NCBI GenBank assembly: GCA_001774685.1
Contig: MFAS01000001.1
Location: forward strand, 607,557-671,556
DNA length: 64,000 nucleotides
DNA from: Candidatus Collierbacteria bacterium RIFOXYD2_FULL_45_13
GTDB taxonomy: Bacteria > Patescibacteriota > Microgenomatia > UBA1400 > MFAQ01
Direction of reading: 5' to 3'
Every line of letters begins with the position of its first letter. Position 1 is the first letter of the stretch. Below the pieces are notes generated by a model. It saw only the letters and a list, made by a program, of their open reading frames with translations, was not told the DNA's origin and searched no databases. Positions 39,376 through 49,187 of the stretch are shown piece by piece. A program made the position numbers and the translations under genes.

Positions 39376-40077
39376 GTGCCACCCTTTCAGTATCGGGTTA
39401 TACGTTCCAATAGTATGACCTCCGCCACCACCATCCGAGTTCACCCAGACGGGGGAGTCATTGTTCGTGCACCGTTTTGGCTACCCGCATTTTCTATCCA
39501 AAAATTTGTTGACGAAAAAACCGACTGGATTCTCAGGTCTCTCGCTAGAACCAAGCCATCTGTCTCTGCCAAAAAATACAGAGAGGGGGATAAGCATCTC
39601 TACTTTGGCCGGGAGTATCCGCTTAAGATAAAAACGGTTGATAGACCAACGAGGACGCTCATCGAGTTGGCTGAAGATTGCATAGTTGTCTGTCTTTTTC
39701 GAGGGCATTCCGAAGACAAGAGAATAGCTGAGATAAGGGACGGTCTCTTACGCTGGTATCTGGAAACCGGCATCTCGGTTATTACCGAAAAAGTTAACGT
39801 GTATACCGAAAAAATTGGTGTGAACTACAGCCGTATCGATATCAAAAAGGTTTCATCTATCTGGGGAAGCTGTTCACCAAGTAACAAGCTTTGTTTCAAT
39901 CGCAAACTAATTATGGCTCCGCATGAGGTGGTTGATTATGTGATCATTCACGAAGTCTGTCACCTGGTGCACAGAAACCACGGAAGCCACTTCTGGGGGC
40001 TTGTCGCCAAGTTTGATCCAAAATACAAGGAACATCGTCGCTGGTTGTACCGCAATCATTCTTTACTTTCGATTTAA
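39376..40077 (+). CDS. DUF45/YgjP-like zinc metallohydrolase (HExxH)
   Basis: C-terminal HEVCHLVHRNHGSHFW, the M48/WLM-like motif of the YgjP family. An alternative start exists at 39415. Confidence 0.7.
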   Translation: MPPFQYRVIRSNSMTSATTIRVHPDGGVIVRAPFWLPAFSIQKFVDEKTDWILRSLARTKPSVSAKKYREGDKHLYFGREYPLKIKTVDRPTRTLIELAEDCIVVCLFRGHSEDKRIAEIRDGLLRWYLETGISVITEKVNVYTEKIGVNYSRIDIKKVSSIWGSCSPSNKLCFNRKLIMAPHEVVDYVIIHEVCHLVHRNHGSHFWGLVAKFDPKYKEHRRWLYRNHSLLSI

Positions 40078-40078
40078 A

Positions 40079-41386
40079 ATGATTGTTGATTTTGACGAAG
40101 ATTCTCAAAAAGCCCTGAACTCACTGGAAAGCAGCTCGGAGAATATCTTCTTAACCGGAAACGCGGGAACCGGCAAGTCCACTTTGTTGGATCATTTTAG
40201 AAACCAAACTGGTCAGAATGTGGCTGTCGTGGCACCCACCGGTGTCGCAGCTTTAAATGTTAAGGGAGAAACAATTCACTCATTTTTTGGGTTTCCCCCA
40301 AATGTCACCCCCGAAAAGGCATCCCTGGAAGCCAAACACTCCAAAAAAGCAAAAATCTATACCAATCTGGATGTCTTGGTCATTGATGAGATATCCATGG
40401 TCAGAGCCGACCTCTTGGATAGTATAGACTCGTTCCTGAGGGTCGTCAGAAAAAACCGGGAGGTTTTTGGAGGAGTTCGGATTATCATGGTGGGAGATCT
40501 CCACCAGTTACCTCCTGTAGTCACCAGCCAGGAAAGGTCAGCTCTGGAAAATCTCTATGAAACTCCGTATTTCTTTTCATCCAAAGTTTTCAATAGGCTT
40601 TTTGAGGGTCTATATTCACAATTCAAATTTATCGAGCTTCAAACCATCTATCGTCAATCTGAAAAAAGATTTATCAATATTCTCAATCGAATCAGAAACA
40701 ATCAAGCCACCTCGGAAGATCTGCAAACAATAAATAATCAATTGATTGGCGAAGGTGACCTCATCGACAACTACATAATTTTGACCGCAATGAATGAACA
40801 GGCAGACAAAATTAATCAGGCACGACTCGACGAAATCGAAGGGCCGGTCTACTCATTTCACGCTGTCCGTACCGGTGATTTTTCCTCACAACAGGGGCCC
40901 GCTGCCGATACTGTCTTGCTTAAGACGGGTGCCAGAGTGATGCTCCTGAACAACGACCCTCAAGATCGTTGGATCAATGGCACCACGGGAACCTTATTTA
41001 GAGCTGAATCAGGCTGTGCCTATGTCAGGATAGATGGAGGCGGTGTGGAGAAAATCGAGCCGGTTACCTGGACCTCATACAAAACCTCATATAATCCGGA
41101 CACTGCCGTTCTGGAAACTAAAGAGGCTGGGAGCTTTAAGCAAATGCCTATTCGTCTGGCCTGGGCTATTACGATTCATAAGAGCCAAGGAAAAACTTTT
41201 GAAAAGGTGGTCATTGATCTTGGTCGAGGGGCATTCGCGCATGGCCAGACCTATGTTGCCTTGAGTCGCTGTACTACCATGTCAGGCTTGAGACTGATTA
41301 GACCACTGACCCAACAATCCATCATTATGGATAAGCGGGTCTTAGAATTTCTGGATCGCCTTAGGCAATCGGCTGGACCGCCTTGA
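40079..41386 (+). CDS. Pif1/RecD-like (AAA_30 + UvrD_C_2) ATP-dependent DNA helicase
   Basis: Walker A GNAGTGKST, Walker B VLVIDEISMV, and the C-terminal helicase motifs ITIHKSQGKTF and ALSRCTTMSGL. Confidence 0.8.
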   Translation: MIVDFDEDSQKALNSLESSSENIFLTGNAGTGKSTLLDHFRNQTGQNVAVVAPTGVAALNVKGETIHSFFGFPPNVTPEKASLEAKHSKKAKIYTNLDVLVIDEISMVRADLLDSIDSFLRVVRKNREVFGGVRIIMVGDLHQLPPVVTSQERSALENLYETPYFFSSKVFNRLFEGLYSQFKFIELQTIYRQSEKRFINILNRIRNNQATSEDLQTINNQLIGEGDLIDNYIILTAMNEQADKINQARLDEIEGPVYSFHAVRTGDFSSQQGPAADTVLLKTGARVMLLNNDPQDRWINGTTGTLFRAESGCAYVRIDGGGVEKIEPVTWTSYKTSYNPDTAVLETKEAGSFKQMPIRLAWAITIHKSQGKTFEKVVIDLGRGAFAHGQTYVALSRCTTMSGLRLIRPLTQQSIIMDKRVLEFLDRLRQSAGPP

Positions 41387-43624: not shown

Positions 43625-44503
43625 ATGGCAAAAGATAAATACTCAGCTGTCTGGATTTCGCATACTTCCATTAACGACTTCCTTCACTGCCCCCGGGCGT
43701 ATTTTCTGAAGAATATTTACAAAGACCGCAGTTCCGGTAACAAAATTCAAATTATTACGCCATCCCTGGCCCTGGGTTCAGCGGTTCATGAGGTCATCGA
43801 TTCATTATCCACCATCTCAACAAATAACCGGTTCAGCGATTCCCTGGTCTTGAAATTCGATCGGATTTGGGAAAAATATACCGGTAAAAAGGGCGGTTTC
43901 AGAGATCTGGACGAAGAGCATAAATACAAGGAACGGGGTAAGGCTATGCTAAGGAGGGTCATGGACCATCCTGGTCCGCTATCGAATCTGGCGGTCAAGA
44001 TTAGGGAAAGTCTGCCATATTTTTGGTTATCGGAGGAGGAAAACATTATTCTCTGTGGCAAAGTTGACTGGTTAGAGTACCTCAAAGATGAGGACAGTAT
44101 CCACATTATTGACTTCAAAACGAGTAAAAAAGAGGAAATCAAAGAATCGCTTCAGTTACCCATATATTATTTATTGGTAGTAAATTCTCAAAAAAGACCT
44201 GTCTCAAAAGCCTCCTACTGGTACTTGGACTTTTCAGACATGCCAAAAGAAATGGTTCTACCGGATATTGTTTCCGCTGAATCTAAACTATTGGAAATTG
44301 GCCGCAAAATCAAATTAGCCAGAAAACTTGAAAAGTTTGATTGTCCAAGTGGCAAAGACGGCTGTCCACAATGTCGTCAACTGGAGTCAATTATCGGGGG
44401 AGGAGGGGAGAAGGTGGGCGAGATGGGCCATCGTGACAGTTACATTCTGGATATTGAGGAAACTCCGGAGGTTGAGGAGCTTGAGGACAGTTTCATTATC
44501 TAA
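43625..44503 (+). CDS. PD-(D/E)XK nuclease of the RecB/Cas4 family with Fe-S cluster cysteines
   Basis: An N-terminal Cys (HCPRAYF), the DxK motif IIDFKTSK, QLPIYY (QhxxY), and C-terminal CPSGKDGCPQC. Confidence 0.7.
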   Translation: MAKDKYSAVWISHTSINDFLHCPRAYFLKNIYKDRSSGNKIQIITPSLALGSAVHEVIDSLSTISTNNRFSDSLVLKFDRIWEKYTGKKGGFRDLDEEHKYKERGKAMLRRVMDHPGPLSNLAVKIRESLPYFWLSEEENIILCGKVDWLEYLKDEDSIHIIDFKTSKKEEIKESLQLPIYYLLVVNSQKRPVSKASYWYLDFSDMPKEMVLPDIVSAESKLLEIGRKIKLARKLEKFDCPSGKDGCPQCRQLESIIGGGGEKVGEMGHRDSYILDIEETPEVEELEDSFII

Positions 44504-46437: not shown

Positions 46438-46495
46438 AAAGGTATTTTACCTTATCTTATGACACCGGCATCTGCCGGCGGGATATAATGACCGC

Positions 46496-47596
46496 ATGAC
46501 CAATAATATTAAATGCCCCAATTGCGGAGAAGAAATAGAGATCTCGGAAGCCCTCAGCGCCACCATAAAAGAACAGATGGGTAAAAGTCTCAGAGACGAA
46601 GGTTTTAGAGAGGCAGAAAAGAAATATAAGTCAGAAGCCGCCGAAGAATCGAAGGTTCTTAAAGAAGAGCTGGAGTTTAAGTCCAAGAAATTGGATGAGG
46701 CTCGTGAGGCGGAGCGATTATTAAGACAGGAAAAATTGAAACTTGAAGACGAAAAGAAATCATTCGAACTGGAAAAACAGAAGCAGTTGGATATTGAAAG
46801 AGAAAAGATTCGACAGCAAACGCTTTTCGAAGCTAGCGATGCTCATCGTCTAAAAGATCTGGAGAAAGAAAAAATGATTAATGATCTGAAGAAATCATTG
46901 GAGGATGCCCAACTGAAAGCCTCTCAGAGTTCACAACAGTTACAAGGCGAAGTACAGGAGCTGGATCTGGAAAGTTATCTGCAAACCTCCTTTCCGAGTG
47001 ACGAGGTAAACCCTGTCGGTAAGGGAGTCCGTGGTGCCGATATAAGTCATGTCGTTCGGACCAATTTGGGAACAGTCTGCGGCGTCATACTCTGGGAATC
47101 CAAAAGAACTAAAGCTTGGATGGATGATTGGACCACGAAACTTAAGGACGATCTCCGTGCCTCCAAAGCCAATGTCCCGGTGATCATCACCTCTGTACTA
47201 CCCAAAGAAGTAAAGTCCGGATTTGGCTTCTTCCAAGGGGTTTGGGTAGCCGAGCCAAAATATATTCAACCATTGGCCGAGATTCTACGAAAGAATCTTA
47301 TCGACGTAGCCAGAGAAAAACACAACGGACAAGACAGGGGAACGAAGGCCGATATGATCTATACCTATTTGACAAGTGACGCTTTTGTTCAGCAAATCCA
47401 GAGTATTATCGAAGTCCATCAAAGCATGCAGCTTCAGGTTCAAAAAGAAAGAGCCGCTTTTGAAAAAATCTGGAAGGAAAGGGAAGCCCAGGCCTCCAGA
47501 ATTATTATGAGCACCGCCGGCATCTACGGCAGCATCCAAGGCGTGGCCGGCCAATCCATGCCACCCGTCAAAGGCCTCGATCTCCTCGATCCATAG
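46496..47596 (+). CDS. Zn-ribbon / coiled-coil / C-terminal PD-(D/E)XK-like nuclease-fold protein (DUF2130-like architecture)
   Basis: N-terminal CPNCGEEI zinc ribbon, a ~150-aa Lys/Glu coiled coil, then GADISHVV...ILWESKRTK (D...ExK) in the C-terminal domain. Confidence 0.65.
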   Translation: MTNNIKCPNCGEEIEISEALSATIKEQMGKSLRDEGFREAEKKYKSEAAEESKVLKEELEFKSKKLDEAREAERLLRQEKLKLEDEKKSFELEKQKQLDIEREKIRQQTLFEASDAHRLKDLEKEKMINDLKKSLEDAQLKASQSSQQLQGEVQELDLESYLQTSFPSDEVNPVGKGVRGADISHVVRTNLGTVCGVILWESKRTKAWMDDWTTKLKDDLRASKANVPVIITSVLPKEVKSGFGFFQGVWVAEPKYIQPLAEILRKNLIDVAREKHNGQDRGTKADMIYTYLTSDAFVQQIQSIIEVHQSMQLQVQKERAAFEKIWKEREAQASRIIMSTAGIYGSIQGVAGQSMPPVKGLDLLDP

Positions 47597-47617
47597 TTAC
47601 TCTGCTAAAATATCCGG

Positions 47618-48391
47618 ATGATAAAACTACAGACAGGAAACAACGAGATCCTTAGAAAGGCTCTTGACAATATAAATTCGAGCGAGGAAATAAGAGTCAT
47701 GTGGGAGATGACCAACACTAACGCCATCAAGCGGATGGGTTACTCGGATCACGGAATTGTCCACTTTCAGATTGTGGCCGACTATGCTCTTCAGATGTGC
47801 CGAATTCTGGCGAAAAGTGATAAAAAAATGGGCATTGTAAAGGAGTACGGTTTGACGATGAACCATGCCGAGTTAGTTGTTGTTTTGGCTTCGTTGTTTC
47901 ACGATTTAGGTATGACGATCAATCGCAGGGGGCACGAGGAATACAGTCTTTTTATTGCGTCTAGAGTGATTGACCTAGTCCTAGATTTCCTTCCGGTGAG
48001 AGAAAGGGTAATTGTCCGAGGCGAAACGCTTCACGCCATAATCAACCATCGTGATGATGGCCATCCAAACACCATTGAGGCGGGTATCGTCCGTGTGGCA
48101 GATGCACTTGATATGAGTAAGGGAAGGTCGCGTATTCCATTTGAAAAAGGGGAAATTAACATCCATTCATTGTCCGCCTACGCCATCAACTCAGTCACTC
48201 TCAAAGAGGGCACCGGTGTACCGGTTGAAATAAACATTTTTATGAATAACTCTTCTGGCATATTTCAGGTTGATGAATTACTAAAGGAAAAGCTCAAACA
48301 TTCAGGCATCGAAAGGTATTGCCAAGTGACTGCCACAATCGATGGTGACTCGGAAAAGAAACTTTTAACGAAGTTTGTTGTCTCAGCCTAA
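47618..48391 (+). CDS. HD-domain phosphohydrolase
   Basis: H...HD...H...H...D pattern: GIVHFQ, SLFHDLGM, RGHEEYS, INHRDDGH and VADALDM. Confidence 0.75.
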   Translation: MIKLQTGNNEILRKALDNINSSEEIRVMWEMTNTNAIKRMGYSDHGIVHFQIVADYALQMCRILAKSDKKMGIVKEYGLTMNHAELVVVLASLFHDLGMTINRRGHEEYSLFIASRVIDLVLDFLPVRERVIVRGETLHAIINHRDDGHPNTIEAGIVRVADALDMSKGRSRIPFEKGEINIHSLSAYAINSVTLKEGTGVPVEINIFMNNSSGIFQVDELLKEKLKHSGIERYCQVTATIDGDSEKKLLTKFVVSA

Positions 48392-48419
48392 ACCAGAGCT
48401 CTCTATGCTAACATGAGCC

Positions 48420-49187
48420 ATGTACTATAAGAAATCCAGGGGTATTTTTGATCCGAAATCAAAAGATCCCTTCAAAATCAGCCGATCTAAGATAGAGCTT
48501 TATACTCAATGCCCTCGTTGTTTCTATATGGACGTTCGGTTGGGTCTATCGCGCCCATCTACTCCTCCATATACCTTAAACTCAGCCGTCGATAACTTAT
48601 TAAAAAACGAGTTTGATCTACTTAGGAAAACAGGGGAGAAGCACGAACTAATGAAAAAATACGCCATAGACGCCATACCTTTTAACCACCCAGATTTGCC
48701 TCAATGGAGAGGTGAAGTCACCGCTTTTGAAGGTGCCTTGGTTGTGGATGAAAAATCAAATCTCCTTATCAACGGGTTGGTCGATGATGTATGGCAAGAC
48801 AGTCAGGGAAATCTGGTGATGGTGGATTACAAGTCGACCAGCTCGGCTAAGCCACCCTCCCTTGATGATGAGTGGAAACAGTCCTACAAGCGGCAAATAG
48901 AGATTTATCAATGGATTTTCCGCAAGCTTGGTTTTCCTGTATCTAGAATTGGTTACTTTGTTTTCGCCAATGCCATGAAGAATTTACCAAAATTCGACGG
49001 CAAACTCGAGTTTGAGATGTCCATTCTCGCTTACGAAGGAAACTCCGACTGGGTTGAACTCACTCTCTTGGAAATTCGCGAGCTTCTCAACTCAGAAGTC
49101 ATTCCTGCACCTGCTCACGAGTGCGAGTATTGTGCCTACAAACAGCAGTCAGTCCAAATAGTTAAATCGATAAGAGAAAAGCAATAA
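48420..49187 (+). CDS. PD-(D/E)XK nuclease of the RecB/Cas4 family (Cys-x2-Cys at both termini)
   Basis: CPRCFY at the N-terminus, LVMVDYKS (DxK), RQIEIYQ (QhxxY), and HECEYCAYK at the C-terminus. Confidence 0.7.
   Translation: MYYKKSRGIFDPKSKDPFKISRSKIELYTQCPRCFYMDVRLGLSRPSTPPYTLNSAVDNLLKNEFDLLRKTGEKHELMKKYAIDAIPFNHPDLPQWRGEVTAFEGALVVDEKSNLLINGLVDDVWQDSQGNLVMVDYKSTSSAKPPSLDDEWKQSYKRQIEIYQWIFRKLGFPVSRIGYFVFANAMKNLPKFDGKLEFEMSILAYEGNSDWVELTLLEIRELLNSEVIPAPAHECEYCAYKQQSVQIVKSIREKQ

What the first reader, a model, noticed from the sequence alone, without database searches (positions are those of the whole stretch)
46496..49187. Tight three-gene operon: Zn-ribbon/coiled-coil PD-(D/E)XK-like protein + HD phosphohydrolase + Cas4-like Fe-S nuclease; candidate uncharacterised nucleic-acid-targeting (defence or repair) module
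Three same-strand genes are separated by only 21 and 28 bp. The first has a CPNCG zinc ribbon, a long Lys/Glu coiled coil and a C-terminal region with a D...E-x-K pattern (GADISHVV...ILWESK), a DUF2130-like architecture as far as I recall. The second has an HD domain with all five metal-ligand positions. The third is a RecB/Cas4-family nuclease with a QhxxY motif and CxxC pairs at both ends. Two predicted nucleases plus an HD hydrolase resemble the enzymatic repertoire of CRISPR-Cas and other anti-phage systems. No cas1/cas2 or repeat array is present. I know of no described system with exactly this composition.
Basis: partly seen in the sequence, partly recalled or inferred. Interest (0 to 1): 0.72.

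Follow-up and report, generated by a model that had tools for sequence, protein, structure and literature searches.

The report
Three neighbouring genes, not one system
The three genes and their predicted domains are real, but comparison with about 140 related loci shows the trio is a recent, lineage-specific juxtaposition in a Collierbacteria (CPR) genome: the HD gene is a late insertion, and only the two nucleases show a recurrent link, which looks like DNA repair rather than a new defence system.

Summary
Observation confirmed. ORFs lie at 46496-47596 (DUF2130, Pfam 4e-57), 47618-48391 (HD) and 48420-49187 (PDDEXK_1, Cas4-like), with gaps of 21 and 28 bp and no CRISPR array.

The three-gene module is not supported. 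The HD gene lies near DUF2130 in only 2 of 142 DUF2130 loci: this window and one relative that carries an extra ORF. In 14 of 24 Collierbacteria loci the A-C gap holds an opposite-strand pyruvate kinase gene. Each of the three genes has its own -10-like box 5-6 nt before its ATG, a layout common in this window, so tight spacing does not show an operon. HD homologues elsewhere never sit beside A or C. PADLOC has no model for A or B.

Best reading: housekeeping DNA-repair nucleases plus an unrelated nucleotide phosphohydrolase. Interest is low. Side observation: distant DUF2130 homologues sit in Hma-like and restriction-modification-like defence islands.

The parts
46496..47596 (+). Gene A: DUF2130 protein (366 aa). 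It has an N-terminal single CxxC knuckle (C7, C10), a continuous helix of about 135 residues (17-150) and a PD-(D/E)XK nuclease domain (about 158-252) followed by a helical C-terminal region.
47618..48391 (+). Gene B: HD-superfamily metal-dependent phosphohydrolase (257 aa) with a small alpha/beta C-terminal domain. It is a recent insertion between A and C.
48420..49187 (+). Gene C: RecB-family (Cas4-like) PD-(D/E)XK nuclease (255 aa) with an unusual 2+2 cysteine pattern (CPRC ... CEYC).
   Evidence: PDDEXK_1 6.3e-16. Cas_Cas4 22.6 bits against a 22.7 cutoff, and TIGR00372 34 bits against 65. Invariant C31, C34, C235, C238, D122/D123, D136-Y-K138, Q159, Y163.
43625..44503 (+). Second RecB-family (Cas4-like) nuclease ('p292 type', 292 aa, classical 1+3 Cys). 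It lies 2 kb upstream of A. Its orthologues are the most frequent direct partners of DUF2130 in other Microgenomates.
   Evidence: PDDEXK_1 9e-21. Orthologues overlap DUF2130 by 4 bp in L062, L063, L076, L077 and L157-159, and lie 3 bp downstream in L107. It is only marginally similar to C.
46484..46489 (+). TATAAT -10-like box, 6 nt upstream of the ATG of A.
   Evidence: Read from the sequence. This position class is about 4-fold enriched upstream of ORFs in the window.
47603..47611 (+). TGcTAAAAT extended -10-like box inside the 21-bp A-B gap, 6 nt upstream of the ATG of B.
   Evidence: Read from the sequence. Enrichment analysis.
48406..48414 (+). TGcTAACAT extended -10-like box inside the 28-bp B-C gap, 5 nt upstream of the ATG of C.
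   Evidence: Read from the sequence. Enrichment analysis.

Best explanation
The locus holds three individually conserved, functionally separable genes of a Collierbacteria chromosome. They became immediate neighbours only recently.

Shown:
- A is a DUF2130 protein with a restriction-endonuclease-fold catalytic domain on a very long helix.
- C is a RecB-family nuclease with four invariant Cys.
- B is an HD phosphohydrolase whose fold resembles small-molecule nucleotide phosphohydrolases and phosphodiesterases more than Cas3-type HD nucleases.
- B is absent from the A-C interval in nearly all relatives.

Inferred:
- A dimerises through its 135-residue helix as a coiled coil.
- Its two-Cys N-terminal knuckles pair to bind one Zn between chains, analogous to a Rad50 hook.
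- Its PD-(D/E)XK domain (D182, E201, K203) cuts DNA ends or branched intermediates.
- It works with a RecB-family nuclease (the C type, the p292 type, or a UvrD-nuclease fusion, depending on lineage) in double-strand-break or recombination-intermediate processing. This would be a housekeeping repair function in reduced CPR genomes.
- B acts on nucleotides, which is hinted at by one relative embedded in a dNK/ThyA/DHFR/TK/TMK/dCD cluster. It is a passenger in a variable slot, not a partner of the nucleases.
- Each gene is probably transcribed from its own promoter as a leaderless or short-leader mRNA.
For: Synteny:
- 24 Collierbacteria loci are collinear over about 14 kb, but HD lies between A and C only in the window and L004.
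- The gap is 27-77 bp in L002, L003, L005 and L009.
- It carries an opposite-strand pyruvate kinase gene in 14 loci.
- The HD family is within about 5-6 kb of DUF2130 in 2 of 142 loci.

HD contexts elsewhere lack A and C and vary: GNAT/NUDIX/methyltransferase, an unknown 256-aa gene, a thymidylate/dNK cluster, PMT_2/PhoU.

DUF2130 with a RecB-family nuclease:
- C type 15 bp downstream in L064, L066, L068 and L154-156.
- p292 type overlapping by 4 bp upstream in L062, L063, L076, L077 and L157-159, in the order HhH-GPD -> PDDEXK_1 -> DUF2130.
- p292 type 3 bp downstream in L107.
- 4-bp overlap with a 1032-aa UvrD+PDDEXK_1 fusion in L087.
- Of 23 clusters of DUF2130 proteins (70% identity) with at least 44% identity to A, 6 show direct adjacency and 5 more have such a nuclease within 3 kb.

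Repair neighbours: HhH-GPD and MGMT genes near A or C homologues.

Folds.

Promoters: 15 of 51 ORFs have a TAnhhT box ending 4-11 nt before the start, and 5 of 51 have an SD-like motif. A, B and C all carry the box.

PADLOC gives no hit for A or B.
Against: - No terminator-like site on the + strand lies between the three genes, so read-through co-transcription cannot be excluded.
- Some adjacency of DUF2130 to RecB-family nucleases may be inherited synteny rather than selection. The 70%-identity clusters are not fully independent.
- Four clusters with adequate flanks (for example Gottesmanbacteria-like L045-48) have no nuclease neighbour.
- DUF2130 homologues at 36-49% identity lie in defence or R-M-like islands, so a defence role for the family is real in some lineages.
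- No biochemical data exist for DUF2130.
- The nucleotide substrate of HD rests on a single neighbourhood.
- The Zn-bridged dimer is pure inference.
Confidence: 0.6

Rival explanations
1. One reading: A, B and C form one co-transcribed three-component nucleic-acid-targeting defence system (two nucleases plus an HD hydrolase).
For: - Same strand, 21- and 28-bp gaps, and no intervening + strand terminator-like site.
- The enzymatic repertoire resembles defence effectors. C has weak Cas4 hits in PADLOC (3.6e-9).
- The DUF2130 family occurs in defence islands elsewhere.
Against: - The triad occurs in the window and one relative only, and there with an extra ORF.
- The HD family is near DUF2130 in 2 of 142 loci.
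- An opposite-strand pyruvate kinase gene separates A and C in most Collierbacteria.
- All three genes are conserved at 55-75% identity across Microgenomates in core-gene contexts, unlike patchy defence genes.
- PADLOC has no model hit for A or B.
- Each gene has its own -10-like box.
Confidence: 0.05
2. DUF2130 plus a Cas4-like nuclease is a two-gene defence or anti-MGE pair in Microgenomates, with HD unrelated.
For: - Recurrent tight pairing.
- DUF2130 homologues occur in Hma-like islands next to an Old-family ATPase, SIR2-HerA and DNA methyltransferases, and in a type-III-like R-M cluster.
- DUF2130 is present on 16 IMG/VR contigs.
Against: - The pairs are embedded in rpoBC/rpsLG/fusA and HhH-GPD contexts and appear vertically inherited.
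- One partner is an AddA/RecB-like helicase-nuclease typical of repair.
- In Collierbacteria the pair is split by housekeeping genes without loss of either gene.
- No methyltransferase or sensor partner is present.
Confidence: 0.12
3. Pure coincidence: none of the three genes, including A and C, is functionally linked. All adjacency reflects slowly decaying ancestral gene order in small CPR genomes.
For: - The whole 14-kb neighbourhood is collinear in Collierbacteria, so A-C proximity carries no specific signal there.
- Several lineages lack any nuclease beside DUF2130.
- Bacteroidota DUF2130 genes have unrelated, variable neighbours.
Against: Pairing recurs with three different RecB-family partner architectures, in both gene orders, often with 4-bp start/stop overlap, and in different surrounding contexts. 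Decay of a single ancestral order explains this poorly.
Confidence: 0.23

Closest known systems
DUF2130 / PF09903 / COG4487 (PD-(D/E)XK superfamily family 109 in Steczkiewicz et al. 2012, PMC3424549)
   Same: A is a full-length member (4e-57). It has the predicted PD-(D/E)XK signature and fold. The function of the family is listed as unknown.
   Different: Nothing distinguishes A from the family. The family itself has no studied member.
RmuC (PF02646), a coiled-coil plus PD-(D/E)XK recombination-associated protein
   Same: Same overall architecture: a long coiled coil followed by a restriction-endonuclease-fold domain. Both have a presumed role in recombination control.
   Different: No detectable sequence relationship: hhalign of the A profile against E. 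coli RmuC gives probability 0.2%, and Pfam shows no RmuC hit even at E<=10. A also has an N-terminal CxxC knuckle. The resemblance is an analogy, not membership.
Hjc Holliday-junction resolvase, and the nuclease domains of Can2/Card1 and VC1899
   Different: Sequence identity is 9-15%. A has no CARF domain, and the flanking coiled coil and C-terminal helices have no counterpart in these proteins.
Cas4 (TIGR00372 / PF01930) and the AddB/RecB nuclease domain
   Same: C has the RecB motifs (D, D-x-K, Q...Y) and Cys residues at both termini, as Fe-S Cas4/AddB nucleases do.
   Different: - C scores below the Cas4 curated cutoffs.
- Its Cys pattern is 2+2 (CxxC...CxxC) rather than 1+3.
- There is no cas1, cas2 or CRISPR array.
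- Its contexts are housekeeping.
HD-superfamily nucleotide phosphohydrolases (YpgQ, YedJ, 2pq7; PPX/GppA C-terminal domain; class I PDE fold)
   Same: B has the HD fold and the H...HD...H...H...D ligand set.
   Different: No close solved relative by sequence: the best profile hit is YedJ at E 0.023. B has an extra alpha/beta C-terminal domain of about 70 residues. Its substrate is unknown.
Hma (helicase-methylase-ATPase) systems with embedded defence genes (Payne et al. 2021, PMC8565338; bioRxiv 10.1101/2024.01.29.577857)
   Same: Distant DUF2130 homologues lie between a DrmD/HmaA-like SNF2 helicase and an N6_N4 methyltransferase, next to Old-like ATPases or SIR2-HerA.
   Different: This arrangement is not present in the window. 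DUF2130 is not mentioned in that preprint's main text and has no PADLOC model hit.

Membership tests
DUF2130 (PF09903) | Score above the Pfam gathering threshold over the whole domain | tested here: met
   193.9 bits against a cutoff of 26.7; profile positions 4-252 of 255.
PD-(D/E)XK nuclease superfamily (gene A) | Restriction-endonuclease alpha/beta fold with conserved acidic residues and a (D/E)xK motif | tested here: met
Zinc ribbon (gene A N-terminus) | Four Zn ligands in two knuckles | tested here: not met
   Only C7 and C10 are present and conserved. There is no other Cys or His in residues 1-40. This is a single knuckle or half-site.
RmuC (PF02646) | Detectable sequence or profile homology to RmuC | tested here: not met
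   hhalign of A1 against E. coli RmuC gives probability 0.2%. Pfam scan of the C-terminal half at E<=10 returns only DUF2130. Power is limited because the RmuC side was a single sequence.
HD superfamily (PF01966) | H...HD...D metal-ligand motif and all-helical HD fold | tested here: met
Cas3-type HD nuclease | Closest fold or sequence relationship to Cas3 HD; association with a Cas3 helicase or cas genes | tested here: not met
Cas4 (TIGR00372 / PF01930) | Score above the curated cutoff | tested here: not met
   TIGR00372: 34.1 bits against 65. PF01930: 22.6 bits against 22.7. C does meet the broader PDDEXK_1 family (59.5 against 22).
Cas4 (TIGR00372 / PF01930) | Genomic association with cas1/cas2 and a CRISPR array | tested here: not met
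   No tandem repeats in 64 kb. Neighbours are housekeeping genes. Contexts of homologues lack cas genes.
Cas4/AddB Fe-S nucleases | Four conserved Cys arranged C...CxxCx5C (1+3) that ligate a 4Fe-4S cluster | tested here: inconclusive
   Four invariant Cys are present, but arranged 2+2 (C31-x2-C34 ... C235-x2-C238). Metal content cannot be tested here.
Known anti-phage defence system (PADLOC-DB v2) | Component HMM hits that form a defined system | tested here: not met
   A and B give no hits. C gives only weak generic Cas4 hits.
   The triad is present only in the window and L004. The HD family is near DUF2130 in 2 of 142 loci.

The most novel reading that the evidence does not exclude
DUF2130 proteins are the dedicated partner of RecB-family nucleases or helicase-nucleases in Microgenomates (CPR). 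Together they would form a previously undescribed two-nuclease machine for DNA-end or branch processing, built on a Zn-bridged coiled coil. The same nuclease module would have been co-opted as an effector in Hma-embedded and type-III-like restriction islands and in phages. In this window the pair is represented by A with C and with the upstream p292-type nuclease.
Probability: 0.3. Interest if true: 0.55.

Novelty: new member of a known kind. Interest (0 to 1): 0.27.

Why it matters
As proposed, a new three-enzyme defence system, it does not hold. That saves experimental effort on the triad.

The useful residue is a testable functional lead for an uncharacterised but widespread family. DUF2130 has about 2,950 clusters (50% identity) at E<=1e-10. 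The lead has three parts:
- recurrent translational coupling to RecB-family nucleases in CPR bacteria, whose recombinational-repair machinery is poorly known;
- the presence of DUF2130 homologues inside Hma-like and R-M-like defence islands;
- the point that in this genome short intergenic gaps carry their own -10 boxes and should not be read as operon junctions.

Tried and rejected
- PDB sequence searches with single sequences and with profiles for A, B and C gave nothing significant.
- RmuC homology by hhalign gave no signal. A lenient Pfam scan of the C-terminal half of A returned only DUF2130.
- I tested whether the unannotated genes just downstream of HD homologues in other lineages (L036 236 aa, L039 256 aa) are hidden relatives of C, which would have supported an HD-nuclease link. 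They have no Pfam hit, and hhalign probability to the C profile is 0.6%.
- I tested whether C and the upstream Cas4-like gene are recent paralogues. They are barely alignable.
- PHROGs: A has no hit. B and C have only weak or generic hits.
- I looked for pyruvate kinase or other gap-ORF homologues elsewhere in the window. None were found.
- I tried to place the genomes that carry HD at other loci by comparing their neighbours with the window. This was uninformative.
- The consensus promoter/terminator scan was not enriched over shuffles. The position-specific -10 analysis was more informative.
- Foldseek against afdb50 was unavailable.
- Literature searches for DUF2130, COG4487 and PF09903 found no functional study.
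Full report
1. WHAT IS THERE

The three ORFs are exactly as described: 46496-47596 (A, 366 aa), 47618-48391 (B, 257 aa) and 48420-49187 (C, 255 aa). All are on the + strand, with gaps of 21 and 28 bp.

Pfam assigns:
- A to DUF2130 (4e-57);
- B to HD (4.9e-8);
- C to PDDEXK_1 (6.3e-16). Cas_Cas4 falls just under its cutoff, and TIGR00372 falls far under (34 bits against 65).

PADLOC has no model hit for A or B and only weak generic Cas4 hits for C. The 64-kb window has no tandem-repeat or CRISPR array.

Relatives identify the organism as Candidatus Collierbacteria (Microgenomates, CPR). The surroundings are ordinary chromosome: YgjP, a Pif1-like helicase, an MFS transporter, PAP2, a second Cas4-like nuclease at 43625-44503, a CAP-domain protein, an HPF-like protein, a ferredoxin, a GreA-like protein, QueA, a PLD-like protein, Tgt and tRNAs.

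The gene callers used on the source contig chose shorter starts for B (230 aa) and C (178 aa). The N-terminal residues of the long ORFs are invariant among homologues, so the long ORFs and the short gaps are correct.

2. THE PROTEINS

Gene A
- The AF2 model (pLDDT 79.6) shows a small beta-knuckle (residues 4-15), one continuous helix (17-150), an alpha/beta domain (about 158-252) and C-terminal helices.
- E152, E155, D182, E201 and K203 are invariant in 35 homologues of 52-90% identity.
It also agrees with the published assignment of DUF2130/COG4487 to the PD-(D/E)XK superfamily with unknown function (PMC3424549).
- The 'zinc ribbon' has only two Cys (C7, C10), so it is a half-site. I infer, without a test, that two chains could share one Zn at the tip of a parallel coiled coil.
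- No relationship to RmuC was detectable.

Gene B
- The AF2 model is confident (pLDDT 90.9). It shows an HD fold with a small C-terminal alpha/beta domain.
- All HD ligands are invariant.

Gene C
- The RecB motifs are invariant: D122/D123, D136-Y-K138, Q159...Y163.
- Four invariant Cys are arranged 2+2, unlike the 1+3 pattern of Cas4/AddB.
- C is only marginally similar to the upstream Cas4-like gene.

3. IS THE TRIAD CONSERVED? NO

In 24 Collierbacteria loci (A at 52-90% identity) the whole region of about 14 kb is collinear: Pif1 - MFS - PAP2 - p292 nuclease - CAP - HPF-like - orf148 - ferredoxin - A ... C - GreA-like - QueA - Tgt.

HD lies between A and C only in the window and in L004. In L004 an additional 196-aa ORF with no Pfam hit separates A from HD.

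The A-C interval in the other loci varies:
- 27-77 bp in L002, L003, L005 and L009;
- an opposite-strand histidine-phosphatase-like ORF in L001 and L006;
- an opposite-strand pyruvate kinase-like ORF of about 440-480 aa in 14 loci, with or without small ORFs.

So the ancestral state in this clade is A - pyk(-) - C. HD is a recent insertion into a variable slot.

With HMMs built from my alignments, the HD family occurs within about 5-6 kb of DUF2130 in 2 of 142 loci examined.

HD homologues of 60-73% identity elsewhere sit in differing contexts, never with A or C:
- GNAT/methyltransferase/NUDIX;
- an unknown 256-aa gene unrelated to C;
- a dNK/ThyA/DHFR/TK/TMK/dCTP-deaminase cluster;
- PMT_2/PhoU.

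C homologues outside Collierbacteria lie among tRNA synthetases, MnmA, MGMT, HhH-GPD and RadA.

DUF2130 homologues of 53-57% identity (Gottesmanbacteria-like) lie inside the rpoBC-rpsL-rpsG...fusA-tuf cluster. They sit next to HhH-GPD and an AstE-like gene.

4. IS IT AN OPERON?

Each of the three genes is preceded by a -10-like box ending 5-6 nt before its ATG, and none has a Shine-Dalgarno motif:
- A: TATAAT;
- B: TGcTAAAAT;
- C: TGcTAACAT.

This layout is typical of the window. Of 51 ORFs longer than 150 aa, 15 have a TAnhhT box ending 4-11 nt before the start, about 4-fold over more distal positions. Only 5 of 51 have an SD-like motif.

Short gaps here are therefore compatible with independent leaderless transcription. 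They are not evidence of an operon. Read-through cannot be excluded, because no + strand terminator-like site lies between the genes.

5. WHAT SURVIVES

A metagenome scan and a viral-contig scan with the A profile added 96 loci. Outside Collierbacteria, DUF2130 is repeatedly adjacent and co-directional to a RecB-family nuclease gene:
- C type 15 bp downstream in L064, L066, L068 and L154-156. Independent gene calls and Pfam confirm this.
- p292 type upstream with a 4-bp overlap in L062, L063, L076, L077 and L157-159. One search shows the order HhH-GPD -> PDDEXK_1/Cas4 -> DUF2130.
- p292 type 69 bp upstream in L067 and 1.3 kb upstream in L084.
- p292 type 3 bp downstream in L107.
- In L087, a 4-bp overlap with a 1032-aa UvrD-helicase + PDDEXK_1 fusion, which is AddA/RecB-like.

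I clustered DUF2130 proteins at 70% identity and took the 23 clusters with at least 44% identity to A:
- 6 show direct adjacency;
- 5 more have such a nuclease within 3 kb;
- 4 with adequate flanks have none;
- 8 have too little flanking sequence to judge.

The pairing involves three partner architectures, both gene orders, differing surroundings and nearby base-excision or alkylation repair genes. This favours a functional DUF2130 / RecB-family nuclease link in DNA repair or recombination, although inherited synteny contributes. In the window this link is loose: p292 lies 2 kb upstream across opposite-strand genes, and C lies 0.8 kb downstream behind HD.

6. SIDE OBSERVATIONS ON THE FAMILY

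DUF2130 homologues at 36-43% identity are full-length, including the CxxC knuckle. They lie in clear defence islands with this recurrent order:
- a DrmD/HmaA-like SNF2 helicase (PADLOC DrmD 2.8e-207);
- variable genes (KilA-N/PDC-S22, HATPase_c_3);
- DUF2130;
- an Old-family ATPase (PADLOC Old 4.5e-90, directly adjacent in 8 of 11 loci) or SIR2+HerA;
- an N6_N4 DNA methyltransferase.

This matches the 'genes embedded in Hma' pattern of Payne et al. Their main text does not mention DUF2130.

L082 and L083 (49% identity to A) carry a tight MTase - 213 aa - ResIII helicase - DUF2130 cluster that resembles a type-III R-M system.

Sixteen IMG/VR contigs carry DUF2130. In five of them it lies near a 646-aa ORF that I read as a family-A DNA polymerase; that reading was not checked.

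The family comprises about 2,955 clusters (50% identity) at E<=1e-10. No functional study of it was found.

7. VERDICT

The three-gene 'system' is not supported.

The most likely picture is two housekeeping repair nucleases, with A plausibly cooperating with RecB-family nucleases, and an unrelated HD nucleotide phosphohydrolase that landed between them recently.

Novelty for the finding as given: new members of known families. Interest is low, about 0.27.

The most novel reading not excluded is a DUF2130 / RecB-family nuclease repair machine in CPR bacteria, with the family co-opted in defence islands. I put this at probability about 0.3 and interest about 0.55 if true.

Noticed in passing
window 47597-48419; L001-L024 (interval between the A and C homologues): The A-C interval is a variable slot in Collierbacteria. 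It is empty (27-77 bp), or holds an opposite-strand pyruvate kinase-like ORF (14 loci), a histidine-phosphatase-like ORF, small membrane ORFs, or HD with or without a 196-aa unknown ORF. No pyruvate kinase homologue lies anywhere in the 64-kb window.
   Followed up: partly
L094, L097, L098, L105, L109, L110, L115, L116, L118, L121, L127, L128, L131, L137: Distant DUF2130 homologues (36-43% identity) sit in Hma/DISARM-like defence islands. The order is SNF2 helicase (PADLOC DrmD/HmaA) - variable genes - DUF2130 - Old-family ATPase or SIR2+HerA - N6_N4 methyltransferase. DUF2130 itself has no PADLOC model, so it may be an unlisted component or embedded cargo.
   Followed up: partly
L082 and L083, 447-6122: A tight co-directional four-gene cluster (gaps 5, 8 and 11 bp): N6_N4 MTase - 213-aa unknown - ResIII/SWI2_SNF2 helicase - DUF2130 (49% identity to A). 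It looks like a type-III-like R-M system in which DUF2130 would supply the nuclease.
   Followed up: partly
L087 4995-9241: DUF2130 overlaps by 4 bp the start of a 1032-aa UvrD-helicase + UvrD_C + PDDEXK_1 fusion (AddA/RecB-like helicase-nuclease).
   Followed up: partly
L138-L153 (IMG/VR contigs): Sixteen contigs classified as viral encode full-length DUF2130 homologues (33-41% identity). In five (L144-147, L150) the gene lies within 5 kb of a 646-aa ORF that I read as a family-A DNA polymerase; this was not checked with Pfam.
   Followed up: no
whole window (51 ORFs over 150 aa): The start-codon context suggests widespread leaderless or very short-leader transcription. A TAnhhT -10-like box ends 4-11 nt before the start in 15 of 51 ORFs, peaking at 6 nt. 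Only 5 of 51 ORFs have an SD-like motif.
   Followed up: partly
window 48420-49187 (residues C31, C34, C235, C238): This RecB-family nuclease subfamily has an invariant 2+2 CxxC...CxxC cysteine arrangement instead of the 1+3 pattern of Cas4/AddB. It is unknown whether it binds 4Fe-4S, 2Fe-2S or Zn.
   Followed up: partly
L043 1-12786 and L044: An HD homologue (60% identity to B) is embedded in a nucleotide-metabolism cluster: dNK, 5-FTHF cyclo-ligase, ThyA, DHFR, HAD, TMK, TK, dCTP deaminase. This is the only functional hint for the HD family.
   Followed up: no
L045-L048, gene immediately downstream of DUF2130: In Gottesmanbacteria-like genomes DUF2130 lies inside the rpoBC-rpsLG...fusA-tuf cluster. 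It is always followed by a 221-243-aa AstE_AspA_cat-like gene, and HhH-GPD (L047, L048) and MGMT-like (L047) genes are nearby.
   Followed up: no
L055 3001-3693 and 3953-4489 (source contig of the window): Public gene calls truncate B to 230 aa and C to 178 aa by choosing internal starts. Conservation of the N-termini, including the CPRC motif of C, shows the longer ORFs are correct.
   Followed up: yes
window 40001-41386: A Pif1-like SF1 helicase (PF05970, 5e-34) lies 2.2 kb upstream of the p292-type Cas4-like nuclease and is collinear with it across Collierbacteria. A possible helicase-nuclease relationship was not examined.
   Followed up: no
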